Positions 55,501-58,500 of a stretch of 60,321 bases of DNA are shown in pieces; the stretch's first letter is position 1; each line of letters opens with the position of its first letter. The stretch is from contig JAXLNO010001270.1 in the NCBI GenBank assembly GCA_038087875.1, forward strand, positions 62,001-122,321, given 5' to 3'. This DNA is from Malacoraja senta. Its lineage: Eukaryota. Position numbers: made by a program.

Positions 55501-58500
55501 AATTATTAAAAAAACAATTGTCGTGCCCCATTTTTAAAGGAAATATCCTTGCTTTAAAAGAGCATATTTAGTGATTTAGGATATAGTACACATAAGTGTA
55601 TTACCAGAAAAGCCCAGGAGTGAAGTGAAGACTGCAATTTTCATAACGTGCATATATTCTGGACTTGATAAGATCATGTTCATATATAATTGTGATCTGA
55701 AAGATATCCCTCCATGGACATCATCAAGTCTGGAAATAAGTTCCACTCACCAACTCCTAACATAACTCTTCGACAAACAGAGGCTTTAATATGATGTATT
55801 CACATTTACAATTAATGCCCATCAACCATTTCTTATCTGGTGAATTTGGAAATGCATCTACATATGAATTATTGTTCAAGTTCTGAATCAGTCAATGATG
55901 TTTGCTCCCTGCCCAAATATTGTAGAAATGCAGAATGAATATTATCAATTGGTTTATTCAAGGCACCTTCTGCCCTTTTCTTTCCAAAGGCATATTTAAG
56001 AACAAAAATGAATTTTGTTTTTCCCGGAGTTAATTGATCCTGTCTCCAGCTGGATCAACGTGATGGGAAATCTTAGACGTGCATCAGGCAGGGGAACTCA
56101 GGAGATGGAATGGCTTGCAGATTTCTCACTGGCCTCTCAAAATGGACAATGGCACTTTGGAACAGAACTAAGTGCAGAAGTTTGATTCAGTGGGACACAA
56201 CTTAACCACCTGGAGAGGTTGATCTTGCGTTCATACAGGCTATTTTCTGTTAGACTGTCAGGTTGATGATTTATGTTTAAATTTGCACTTGAAAAGATAC
56301 GTTCCTGTTGGCGATGAAGCTAAGTACTGGCCTGCGGAGGTGGATTAAGTCTATGATAAACAATGTAGTGTAAACCCTGGTGAAAATCAATAACCTTAAA
56401 ATTCATTGGTGCTCTATCAATTTAAAAAAAAATGTTAAAACAGGCAGTTAATTGTTCAATATTGTGAGTGCTATTCTGCACCATAGTTGTGTTACCTAGC
56501 ATTTTGTTCTATGACTTCAGGACTGTAAAAAAAAAGCAAAATAATCCATGAAATTGACATCCAAAATTATTATCAGTCTTGACAGAAAAGAGGCAGAATT
56601 GTTAGCAATGCTACAAAATTTTGAGATTTAAAAAATCAAGTCTGCAATTTATCCCATCAGATAAAGCATAAAAATAAGTTTAATTTGTCACCTAATTCAC
56701 TTTCATATCTACAGTATTAAAAAAGTTATGGCTTTTTTCATACTCGGAAATTTGCATCTTGTTCCCTATTGCTTTTCCATTGACAACACAAAAGCTGTGA
56801 TCAAGGACAGTCAAAAGCCCATAACTTTCTTAAAAATTAAGAGAACTGAATGAAATTTTCAGTTATTATAGATTGAAGCATTCTTTTTTTTTTTTTAATT
56901 TGTATTTTATTAGAAGTACATTACATTACAACCACATACATTAGTACTTGTCATTTATATCTTCTTACAATTAATGTACTCCATTTATTTTTTACACTAG
57001 AAAAGGACAGTTCTAAAATGTCCCGAAATTTCACAATAATATGTCGTGGATAAGTTTTTCCCGCACCAGATCTTTGTTTAAATCTTGGGACACGATGAGC
57101 CACTTAGATTTTCGGTTCTTTGGAAAGATTCAGCAGTTGTTTAAGCAAGCCCATGGCAAACTCACGTACATCCTCCCCTTCGGCTCCCTCTGAAACTCCA
57201 AGAATTCTCAAATTCTGACGTCTAGAGCGAGCTTCCAGGTCCAGGCATTTGACTGAGACTTTCTCCAGTTGAGTCACCATCTGTAGTGAAGTTTGTTCGT
57301 TTTCCCGCCTCATTTGCTCATGTTCTTGCCTCATTTTCGCCATGTCTTAAACCATTCGAGCCGTGTTTTTCTCCAATTCCGTAATTGTGCGCATACTTGC
57401 AGCTACTGTTTCAAGCACAGCCGTGAACTTATCCGTATTAGTTTCATCCATCTTGTCCATTCTCTCTGATAGTCCATCTTTCACCTCATCAATTCGTTTA
57501 TTCATAATGTCCAGTGAATCAATCATATTCTTCTGGTTACCAGCATTTAATTCCCTCATCATCTTCTCCATTCCTTCCATCATTTTTGCCATATTTTCCT
57601 TCATTTCCTTCTTCCTTCATATTTTCCTTCATTTCTTTTTTATCTTCCTTCATATTTTCCTTCATATTTTCCATCATAATTTTATTTTCGTCCAAAATCT
57701 CATCTTTCATATTTTTCACTGATTTCTTCAAGTCATCAAACTCTTTCTTAGCTCTTGTATCCATTTCTGCAGCCACTTCAGAGACTTCAGAGACTTCAGA
57801 GGTAACTTCTGCTTCAGACTTCTTCTGGTCTTTCAGCAGCTTTTTCACTGCTCTCTGAGGGCTCACAGCTGGAGACAGTTTACTCATTTAAAGGGCTTCA
57901 AACCACCGTTTAAAACATCGCGCTTAGTGATGACGTCATCAGCGCGGCGACCAGAAGCTCCGGTAAGGTTTTTAAAAACAATCCCGATTTTAGGACCCGT
58001 TTTACACGATAAATCGTGAAATTTTTCGGGAGAGGAGCTAGGTGCACGTCTGTTAGTCCAACATGGCGCCACCGGAAGTGAGATTGAAGCATTCTGAAAC
58101 AAATATGAAACAATCTTACTTGGATGACCTGAAATTAAAGCATATAATTAGTTAGTTACCCAATTGTAGCTAATTACAAAATTCAATTACTAGATCTAAA
58201 CATCTATCCATTTCTTAAGAAAAGGTTAACATTTTTAAAAAGCCTAAGTGTCCAAATAACAGTCACACAAGAATTCACAATATAACATGATTTTTAAATC
58301 TCATTGTCATGAATTTATAGGCCAAATGGAAGGAATTTTGTGTTTAATTCCTGTAAATTAATGGGCATTTAAATCATCTTGCGAGTGGGATTTTGAGGAA
58401 CGCGCTGGTTTGGAACGTTGCGGTTGCAGTGAATTAAACCCCAATATCGGCAGGAAAAATACTGCCGGTTGGTATATTTACATAATCACATTTTCGCAAC

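What the first reader, a model, noticed from the sequence alone, without database searches (positions are those of the whole stretch)
56870..58095. Complete 1.2-kb ORF1-only L1 retrocopy: possible HAL1-like family or retrocopy of a domesticated ORF1 gene
Seen: a 15-bp TSD, an intact-looking 5' end, a 193-nt leader, ORF1 through the RRM (PRHIIVKF) followed by ~20 unrelated codons, AATAAA and poly(A); no CTD and no ORF2. Ordinary L1 insertions lose the 5' end, whereas this one keeps it and lacks the rest. Established: HAL1 elements are ORF1-only L1 derivatives, and L1TD1 is a domesticated ORF1 in mammals. Inference: a trans-mobilised ORF1-only family, a spliced or prematurely polyadenylated L1 RNA, or a processed copy of a host ORF1-derived gene.
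Basis: partly seen in the sequence, partly recalled or inferred. Interest (0 to 1): 0.65.

Follow-up and report, generated by a model that had tools for sequence, protein, structure and literature searches.

The report
Dead ORF2-less L1 copy in a skate-like genome
This is a broken copy of an L1-type jumping gene that keeps its start, two thirds of its first gene and a short tail but has lost everything in between, which is an ordinary kind of transposon debris unless more copies with the same junction exist.

Summary
On the minus strand, a 1,196-nt insert (56885-58080) sits between exact 15-bp target-site duplications. It has a 193-nt CpG-rich, promoter-like leader and an L1-type ORF1 that runs only to the middle of the RRM. 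Then come about 105-120 nt of unrelated AT-rich sequence, AATAAA and a 12-13 A tail. There is no CTD and no ORF2.

A profile of the protein's relatives matches solved human L1 ORF1p at E=6.5e-27, so the parent is a true L1-type ORF1. Neighbouring LINE proteins are 89% identical to little-skate proteins, so the window is from a ray or skate, not human.

The tail is not a continuation of ORF1, so premature polyadenylation inside ORF1 is disfavoured. No protein more than about 50% identical turned up in two very large protein sets, which argues against a conserved host gene.

My reading: a defective L1 copy inserted by target-primed reverse transcription, which lost its middle most likely before or during retrotransposition. 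A later genomic deletion gives the same sequence and is not excluded.

Copy number, the key test for a HAL1-like family, could not be checked because no eukaryotic genome was available.

The parts
58081..58095 (-). Target-site duplication, copy at the element's 5' side
   Evidence: Exact 15/15 match to 56870-56884 (D5).
57888..58080 (-). 193-nt leader (5'UTR), CpG-rich and promoter-like. It holds an ETS-type CCGGAAGT (58072-58079), a YY1-type CGCCATGTT (58060-58068) and a CRE palindrome TGACGTCA (57931-57938).
   Evidence: 16 CpG, o/e 1.46, against 0.43 for the whole window. Each motif occurs only 1-2 times in the whole 60-kb window and one copy of each lies here. The motif names are recalled, not tested.
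57537..57887 (-). ORF1 N-terminal piece: 116 aa in the first frame, starting at the ATG at 57887. It is K/E/M-rich and coiled-coil-like, with a 9-nt x3 repeat and a 12-nt (KENM) tandem repeat.
   Evidence: 35% identity over 86 aa to the N-terminus of relative P0002, E=3e-07.
57605..57616 (-). Zone of the frameshift that moves the ORF1 reading frame by one base
   Evidence: Three-frame translation and sequence. Frameshift-aware alignments place a shift here.
57347..57349 (-). First in-frame TAA stop (X86 of P0001)
57104..57106 (-). Second in-frame TAA stop (X167 of P0001), inside the RRM
   Evidence: Relatives have D at this column.
57017..57220 (-). Truncated RRM of L1-type ORF1p, from RSRRQNLRILGV to PRHIIVKFRDI
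   Evidence: Pfam PF02994 positions 1-70 of 98, E=0.008, below the curated cut-off. Human ORF1p 2ykp E=0.0066. Own family profile 136.9 bits. Family profile against 2ykp E=6.5e-27.
57002..57017 (-). Junction zone where similarity to ORF1 relatives ends
   Evidence: The profile alignment ends at 57017. BLASTP to P0006 ends at 57002, at residue 258 of 354 in the relative.
56897..57001 (-). AT-rich 3' segment unrelated to ORF1 (24% GC, no CpG). It contains the frame's TGA at 56951-56953 and AATAAA at 56906-56911.
   Evidence: Composition. No similarity above shuffles to the C-terminal parts of 6 relatives. z = 0.0-0.6 against 12-26 for RRM control windows.
56885..56896 (-). Poly(A) tail, 12 A (13 with the first base of the TSD)
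56870..56884 (-). Target-site duplication, copy at the element's 3' side
   Evidence: D5.

Best explanation
This is a dead copy of an L1-clade LINE in a ray or skate genome that lacks ORF2.

Shown: the insert has the marks of target-primed reverse transcription of a polyadenylated RNA (15-bp TSD, AATAAA, A12-13 tail). It carries a CpG-rich leader, an ORF1 of the coiled-coil/RRM/CTD type cut off in mid-RRM, and a short unrelated AT-rich end. Its reading frame is broken three times.

Inferred: transcription started at an internal promoter in the leader. The several kilobases between mid-ORF1 and the last 105-120 nt were lost before or during retrotransposition, by splicing of the L1 RNA, by a jump of the reverse transcriptase along its template, or by a deletion already present in the source copy. 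The shortened RNA encodes no ORF2p, so it was copied into a nicked target (bottom strand TTCT/GA) by ORF2p supplied in trans by an autonomous L1. The 3' segment is most simply the parent's own 3' end.

The copy now does nothing, although its leader could still be transcribed.
For: - TSD.
- Tail and polyadenylation signal.
- L1-type ORF1. 689 relatives at E<=0.001 among 1.84 billion representatives, the best at 44% identity. A profile of 35 family members matches human L1 ORF1p 2ykp at E=6.5e-27 over coiled-coil end, RRM and CTD, and the entries 2ldy (1.6e-23) and 2jrb (2e-14) deposited as ORF1 proteins.
- Truncation. The own profile matches positions 14-208 of 341 only. Alignments to six relatives that allow frameshifts all end at element nt 998-1079.
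- Real discontinuity. The tail is not above dinucleotide shuffles for any of 6 relatives: 35, 223, 64, 297, 244 and 199 of 300 shuffles reach the observed score. The two RRM control windows give z = 12-26 with 0 of 60 shuffles reaching the score.
- Promoter-like leader.
- Dead ORF.
- No ORF2-like or second ORF1-like sequence next to it.
- Mild argument, by inference, that some lesions predate insertion. Two nonsense changes in 870 nt suggest several per cent divergence, yet both TSDs are identical, the tail is pure and the leader keeps 16 CpG.
Against: - The parent element was never seen. That the tail is the parent's 3' end, and that the 5' end is complete, are inferences.
- A post-insertion internal deletion of a full-length L1 would give the same sequence, and nothing here separates the two.
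- Pfam and single-sequence PDB matches for this copy alone are weak (E=0.008 and 0.0066). Assignment to the family rests on the profile of relatives.
- The clade call rests on ORF1 type and insertion hallmarks only, since no ORF2 is available.
- The control also shows that the coiled-coil windows are undetectable by the same test (z = -0.8 to 2.0). That test has power only if the missing part is as conserved as the RRM.
- The transcription-factor motif names are recalled and were chosen after looking at the sequence.
Confidence: 0.5

Rival explanations
1. Post-insertion deletion. An ordinary full-length L1 inserted here, and a later genomic deletion removed everything from mid-ORF1 to about 105-120 nt before the poly(A) tail.
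For: It explains the 5' end, tail, poly(A) and both TSDs equally well. It needs no trans-mobilisation. The copy is unique in the window.
Against: It needs a rare multi-kilobase deletion falling wholly inside a copy that otherwise looks young: identical TSDs, a pure A tail and leader CpG o/e 1.46. This argument is prior-based only. No direct evidence against it was obtained.
Confidence: 0.22
2. Member of a multi-copy non-autonomous family (a HAL1 analogue in cartilaginous fish). A promoter-bearing leader plus an ORF1 fragment plus a short tail spreads in trans on L1 ORF2p. This overlaps with the best explanation and differs only in copy number and continued activity.
For: The leader keeps dense promoter-type motifs and CpGs. 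The lesions look older than the insertion (inference), as expected if the source was already a non-coding master. HAL1 families are reported to have arisen several times from L1 (PMC5753468, passage seen).
Against: There is no second copy in 60 kb. No close protein fragment was found in the protein sets, though those sets lack even this window's own ORFs, so this is weak. Unlike HAL1, the copy cannot encode ORF1p.
Confidence: 0.2
3. Chimeric retrocopy. The 3' segment comes from another RNA. Either an L1 lying in an intron spliced from a donor in ORF1 into a host terminal exon, or the reverse transcriptase switched from a polyadenylated host RNA to L1 RNA.
For: The tail is unrelated to ORF1, AT-rich and free of CpG like a 3'UTR. 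The sequence just after the break has a pyrimidine tract followed by AG. Chimeric L1 insertions with mRNA fragments are described for human (abstract of bioRxiv 10.1101/2025.02.02.635956).
Against: No source for the tail could be sought, and no match to it exists elsewhere in the window. In the best-known chimeras (U6/L1) the L1 part is the 3' part, the reverse of the order here (recalled; the abstract seen names these chimeras but not the order of their parts).
Confidence: 0.15
4. Premature polyadenylation at a cryptic signal inside ORF1, with the tail being decayed colinear ORF1 sequence.
For: ORF1 is A-rich (38.5% A) and holds three more AATAAA/ATTAAA hexamers upstream of the tail, besides one in the tail at element nt 1092. 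The distance from KFRDI to the tail, about 134 nt, happens to equal the distance to the RRM/CTD border in P0006 (my count).
Against: There is no similarity of the tail to downstream ORF1 in any frame, with frameshifts allowed. The tail gives z = 0.0-0.6 while RRM windows give 12-26. GC drops from 40% to 24% at the break.
Confidence: 0.05
5. Processed pseudogene of a host gene domesticated from ORF1 (L1TD1-like).
For: The structure of 5'UTR, ORF, short 3'UTR and poly(A) is that of an mRNA. ETS and YY1-type motifs near the 5' end also occur in housekeeping promoters (recalled).
Against: No protein above about 50% identity was found among 5.8 billion clusters or 1.84 billion representatives, although annotated ray and skate genomes are in those sets. 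The relatives form a large, very diverse set (689 representatives, mostly 25-48% identical), as for a transposon protein. The encoded protein would end inside the RRM. Three promoter motifs inside the transcript fit an internal LINE promoter better (inference).
Confidence: 0.04

Closest known systems
HAL1 (half-L1) non-autonomous elements of mammals
   Same: Derived from L1. Keeps the ORF1 side and lacks ORF2. Has L1-type insertion hallmarks and must be mobilised in trans.
   Different: HAL1 'encodes only ORF1p' (PMC5753468, passage). This copy has only the coiled coil and about 70% of the RRM, no CTD and a broken frame. The host is a ray or skate, not a mammal. Family status is unknown. The primary HAL1 paper (Bao and Jurka 2010) is not held, so finer HAL1 features are recalled only.
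SpIREs (spliced integrated retrotransposed elements of human L1)
   Same: Retrocopies of aberrantly processed L1 RNA that keep the true 5' end and the L1 hallmarks. They are evolutionary dead ends and some need ORF1p in trans (abstract and section headings).
   Different: The SpIREs described there come from splices within the 5'UTR or from the 5'UTR into ORF1, as their names say. That they keep ORF2 is my inference, not stated in what I saw. Here the loss runs from mid-ORF1 to near the 3' end. A splice origin could not be tested here because the parent's donor and acceptor are unknown.
Internally deleted or otherwise defective L1 copies
   Same: 5' and 3' ends present, interior missing, frame decayed. 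This is the most ordinary class that fits.
   Different: Nothing separates it from that class except that the deletion leaves a promoter-like leader and a short tail, the minimum a trans-mobilised RNA would need.
L1TD1 (host gene domesticated from L1 ORF1 in mammals)
   Same: ORF1-derived coding sequence without ORF2 (PMC4161310, abstract and passages).
   Different: No intact frame and no conserved orthologue found. The RRM is truncated and the CTD absent. TSD and poly(A) mark it as an insertion, not a gene locus.
Chimeric L1 retrocopies (U6/L1 and mRNA/L1 chimeras)
   Same: Two unrelated RNA segments inside one pair of TSDs (abstract).
   Different: Here the L1 part is the 5' part and reaches a putative L1 5' end. 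The origin of the 3' part is unknown.

Membership tests
L1-type ORF1p (coiled coil, RRM, CTD; Pfam Transposase_22 PF02994) | RRM with the conserved RSRRxNLRI.G..E and PR.IIVKF strands | tested here: met
   The copy alone is weak: PF02994 E=0.008, 16.9 bits against a cut-off of 22.4, and 2ykp E=0.0066. With relatives it is firm: own profile 136.9 bits, family profile against 2ykp E=6.5e-27. Only positions 1-70 of 98 of the Pfam domain are present.
L1-type ORF1p (coiled coil, RRM, CTD; Pfam Transposase_22 PF02994) | N-terminal coiled coil before the RRM | tested here: inconclusive
   There is a K/E/M-rich region with only coiled-coil-type weak Pfam hits. The family profile aligns to the coiled-coil end of 2ykp. 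No coiled-coil predictor was run.
L1-type ORF1p (coiled coil, RRM, CTD; Pfam Transposase_22 PF02994) | C-terminal domain (CTD) after the RRM | tested here: not met
   Profile positions 209-341 are unmatched in all three frames. The tail is not above shuffles. Relatives do have the CTD.
L1-type ORF1p (coiled coil, RRM, CTD; Pfam Transposase_22 PF02994) | Open reading frame | tested here: not met
   One frameshift and two TAA stops.
L1-clade LINE insertion | Poly(A) tail, polyadenylation signal and target-site duplication of roughly 7-20 bp | tested here: met
   A12-13 tail, AATAAA 9 nt upstream, 15-bp exact TSD.
L1-clade LINE insertion | ORF2 with APE endonuclease and reverse transcriptase of the L1 clade | tested here: not met
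   No ORF2 lies between the TSDs. The other RT and EN ORFs in the window belong to other LINE copies far away.
HAL1-like non-autonomous family | L1-derived, ORF1 side kept, ORF2 absent | tested here: met
HAL1-like non-autonomous family | Encodes ORF1p | tested here: not met
   The RRM is truncated, the CTD is missing and the frame is broken. This refers to this copy only. A master copy could differ.
HAL1-like non-autonomous family | Many copies at different loci sharing the same internal junction and 3' end | not testable with these tools
   Only bacterial and archaeal genomes are searchable. There is one copy in the window.
SpIRE-like spliced retrocopy | Junction equals a splice donor/acceptor pair of the parent element | not testable with these tools
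   The parent element is not available.
Domesticated ORF1 gene (L1TD1-like) or its retrocopy | Conserved intact orthologues in related species | tested here: not met
   The best relatives are 33-48% identical. None of 30-380 aa shares enough words to score better. One of the 10 looked up is named, an uncharacterized protein of Rhinoraja longicauda, listed at 33% identity.

The most novel reading that the evidence does not exclude
The copy belongs to a family in rays and skates that spreads on L1 ORF2p. The family carries its own internal promoter and only the trimerising coiled coil plus a partial RRM of ORF1. That would be an independent, non-mammalian analogue of HAL1. Its intact masters could make a truncated ORF1p that interferes with the parent L1. 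Truncated human ORF1 proteins are reported to suppress L1 in trans (title and start of abstract of PMC5605252, seen in the listing).
Probability: 0.15. Interest if true: 0.5.

Novelty: new member of a known kind. Interest (0 to 1): 0.2.

Why it matters
As it stands it matters little. It is one decayed L1 derivative in a genome full of LINE debris.

It has some use as a marker. It shows that an L1-clade machinery using poly(A) tails and 15-bp duplications has been active in this ray or skate lineage. It also gives the 5' leader of that L1 family with a cluster of promoter-type motifs.

If genome-wide copies share the junction, it would be the first HAL1-like family I know of outside mammals. 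Searches listed no such report, and in one search none of the 12 papers listed contained the word 'ORF1-only'. These searches do not cover subscription journals.

Tried and rejected
- Second copy in the window. blastn of the element found only itself; the next best hit was 34 nt at 79% identity, E=0.06. tblastn of P0001 found only itself; the next hit had E=0.11. A tblastn of 161 family proteins gave 156 HSPs. None marks a second ORF1-like locus. Six were flagged outside the element: two run over the tail of the same locus and four are the RT part of P0139 on other LINEs. That script's line '150 of 281 queries' has the wrong denominator, because the protein store had grown; 161 queries were sent.
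- Close relatives or fragments in the 5.8-billion protein set. At 119-380 aa, 2 hits among 123 candidates, 40-45% identical. At 30-118 aa, 4 candidates and none scored. The window's own 79- and 85-aa ORFs were not found either, so this set says nothing about copy number.
- Colinear continuation of ORF1 into the tail. By eye I saw tempting matches in another frame. The test that allows frameshifts, run against shuffles, rejected them.
- Pfam on the separate ORF pieces gave only weak coiled-coil noise.
- Rfam and tRNA scans of the window found nothing, so there is no SINE-like or small-RNA part.
I left that question there.
- The atlas look-up of a neighbouring RT ORF gave no useful taxon. Taxon came instead.
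- The primary HAL1 paper is not held.
Each piece was searched on its own, and the two stops were read as X by reference.
- No structure prediction or complex prediction was run, since neither would change the verdict.
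Full report
**What is there.** Read on the minus strand, the stretch 56885-58080 (1,196 nt) is bounded by an exact 15-bp direct repeat, AGATTGAAGCATTCT on the plus strand, at 56870-56884 and 58081-58095 (family D5). Its parts, in order:
- a 193-nt leader (58080 to 57888);
- an ATG at 57887;
- an ORF1-like reading frame;
- an AT-rich end with AATAAA at 56906-56911;
- 12 A (13 with the first base of the repeat) abutting the second repeat copy.

In element orientation the target reads TTGTTTC | AGAATGCTTCAATCT | ATAATAAC. 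The first nick would therefore be at TTCT/GA on the bottom strand. From recall, that is a loose variant of the L1 endonuclease preference. These are the hallmarks of target-primed reverse transcription of a polyadenylated RNA.

**The ORF is not intact.** Translation shows three pieces:
- 116 aa in one frame (57887-57537);
- 85 aa in the next frame (57604-57350), after a shift within about 57605-57616, inside a 12-nt tandem repeat that encodes KENM units;
- 79 aa (57343-57107).

The last two pieces and the final 50 codons are separated by in-frame TAA codons at 57347-57349 and 57104-57106. For searches I read the two stops as X by reference (P0001, 217 aa). The N-terminal piece was handled on its own.

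**What protein it is.**
- Alone, the copy matches Pfam Transposase_22 (the L1 ORF1 RNA-binding domain) only weakly: E=0.008, 16.9 bits against a cut-off of 22.4, profile positions 1-70 of 98.
- It matches human L1 ORF1p 2ykp at E=0.0066, with RSRRQNLRILGV aligned to KRPNLRLIGV and PRHIIVKF aligned to PRHIIVRF.
- A full HMMER scan of 1.84 billion representatives found 689 relatives at E<=0.001 and 20 at E<=1e-10. The best had 44% identity.
- A profile of 35 family members, including this copy, hits human ORF1p at E=6.5e-27 over the end of the coiled coil, the RRM and the CTD. It also hits the PDB entries 2ldy and 2jrb, deposited as ORF1 proteins, at 1.6e-23 and 2e-14.
- The family is therefore a genuine L1-type ORF1p.
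- One relative of 847 aa (P0139) carries the ORF1-like RRM and a reverse transcriptase in one predicted protein.
- The N-terminal piece is 35% identical over 86 aa to the N-terminus of relative P0002. This supports 57887 as the true start.

**Where it stops.**
- A profile I built from the 56 relatives of 280-400 aa (of 161 held) has 341 positions. It matches the element at 136.9 bits over positions 14-208 and ends at ...IIVKFRDI. Nothing matches positions 209-341 in any frame.
- BLASTP to the close relative P0006 (52% identity over 92 aa) ends at KFRDILELSF against KFRDISSVEF. That is residue 258 of 354 in the relative.
- The break therefore lies at 57002-57017. About a third of the RRM and the whole CTD are missing.

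**Is the tail decayed ORF1?** I aligned the 119 nt after the break to the C-terminal parts of six relatives, allowing frameshifts, against 300 dinucleotide shuffles each. Between 35 and 297 of 300 shuffles reached the observed score. As a control, 119-nt windows of the RRM scored z = 12-26, with 0 of 60 shuffles reaching them. The tail scored z = 0.0-0.6. The coiled-coil windows were also undetectable (z = -0.8 to 2.0). The tail is 24% GC with no CpG, against 40% GC in the ORF. The discontinuity is real, and polyadenylation inside a colinear ORF1 is unlikely.

**The leader.**
- It has 16 CpG in 193 nt (o/e 1.46), against 0.63 in the ORF and 0.43 in the window.
- It holds CCGGAAGT at 58072-58079, CGCCATGTT at 58060-58068 and TGACGTCA at 57931-57938.
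- Each of these patterns occurs only once or twice in the 60-kb window.
- From recall I read them as ETS, YY1 and CRE sites. A YY1 site close to the 5' end is known for human L1.
- I chose the motifs after reading the sequence, so their clustering is suggestive only.
- Promoter motifs inside the transcript fit an internal LINE promoter and a complete or nearly complete 5' end.

**Whose genome.**
- The window is crowded with non-L1 LINE fragments (RT and endonuclease ORFs).
- There are no Rfam hits at all, so no 7SL-type match either, and no tRNA genes.
- A 391-aa LINE ORF at 1191-2366 is 89% identical to a Leucoraja erinacea protein and 78% to one from Hypanus sabinus. Shark proteins are 54-69% identical.
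- The one named ORF1 relative among the ten looked up is from Rhinoraja longicauda.
- I take the window for a ray or skate, not human.
- The run of N at 49605-49769 was left alone.

**What could not be done.**
- The window has no second copy.
- The word-indexed protein set gave two distant hits at 119-380 aa and none at 30-118 aa. It does not contain this window's own short ORFs, so it is blind to unannotated copies.
- The parent L1 was not seen. The origin of the tail, the nature of the junction and the completeness of the 5' end are therefore inferences.

**Weighing the readings.**
- Host-gene retrocopy is disfavoured. There is no relative above about 50% identity even though annotated ray and skate proteins are in the sets. 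The relatives form a large and diverse family. The protein would end in mid-RRM.
- A full-length insertion followed by an internal genomic deletion would give the same sequence, and I cannot exclude it (0.22).
- I favour loss before or during retrotransposition (0.5). This rests on the apparent youth of the insertion compared with its three disabling lesions, which is an inference and weak. It also rests on what survives, a promoter-bearing 5' end and a polyadenylated 3' end, which is the minimum that an RNA copied in trans needs.
- A chimera with a foreign 3' RNA (0.15) and membership of a true family (0.2, overlapping with the favoured reading) remain open.

**Literature seen.**
- HAL1 is described as a non-autonomous L1 derivative that encodes only ORF1p and arose several times in mammals (PMC5753468, passages).
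- L1TD1 is described as a domesticated ORF1 gene (PMC4161310, abstract and passages).
- SpIREs are described as dead-end retrocopies of spliced L1 RNA (PMC5860796, abstract and outline).
- Chimeric L1 insertions have been catalogued for human (bioRxiv 10.1101/2025.02.02.635956, abstract and outline).
- LINE1 is reported in all vertebrate lineages studied, a set that included two non-bony vertebrates (PMC4350176, abstract and passages).
- Truncated ORF1 proteins are reported to suppress L1 (PMC5605252, listing only).
- Bao and Jurka 2010 is not held.
- Searches listed no report of an ORF1-only L1 derivative outside mammals. They do not cover most subscription journals, and supplements were not consulted.

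**Verdict.** The element is a dead, truncated L1 derivative of a well-known general kind. It is of low interest unless a genome search shows a family.

Noticed in passing
window 322-2366 (-) and 46300-48678 (+): Two copies of one non-L1 LINE family in opposite orientation, with long open stretches (endonuclease and RT). The 391-aa piece is 89% identical to a Leucoraja erinacea protein. CR1-like is my recalled label.
   Followed up: partly
window 2599-4877 (-): A second, different LINE with RT (PF00078, 2.5e-24) and endonuclease (PF03372) ORFs, lying right beside the first one. The RT part of relative P0139 matches it best, at 31% identity.
   Followed up: partly
window 21552-21920 (+), 25553-25954 (-), 28530-28997 (-), 47983-48678 (+): Four ORFs share the same C-terminal LINE tail (…FTQRVV.LWNSLP…). 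They look like several 5'-truncated copies of one family. Pfam gave no hit for the two that were scanned.
   Followed up: no
window 51968-52600 (-): A 210-aa open frame with a Cys-rich stretch followed by a …YIGET…-type motif. It reminded me of the GIY-YIG endonuclease of Penelope-like elements (recalled). Pfam gave no hit at E<=1e-4.
   Followed up: partly
window 49605-49769: A run of 165 N. It was left as it is.
   Followed up: no
window 57590-57682 and 57775-57801: The ORF1 coiled-coil region contains a 12-nt tandem repeat (about 7.7 copies, KENM units) and a perfect 9-nt x3 repeat (SEV units). The frameshift lies within the 12-nt repeat.
   Followed up: yes
window about 8900-9700, 12100-12640, 19600-20350, 54800-55330: GC-rich stretches with long open frames in several frames on both strands, which may be CpG-island-like or simple-repeat regions. 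The one at 54.8-55.3 kb lies 1.5 kb from the insertion.
   Followed up: no
protein P0139 (847 aa, unnamed source): A predicted protein that carries an ORF1-like RRM (PF02994, 21.8 bits) and a reverse transcriptase (PF00078, 1.5e-40) in one chain. It is either a gene model fused across ORF1 and ORF2 or a real fusion.
   Followed up: no
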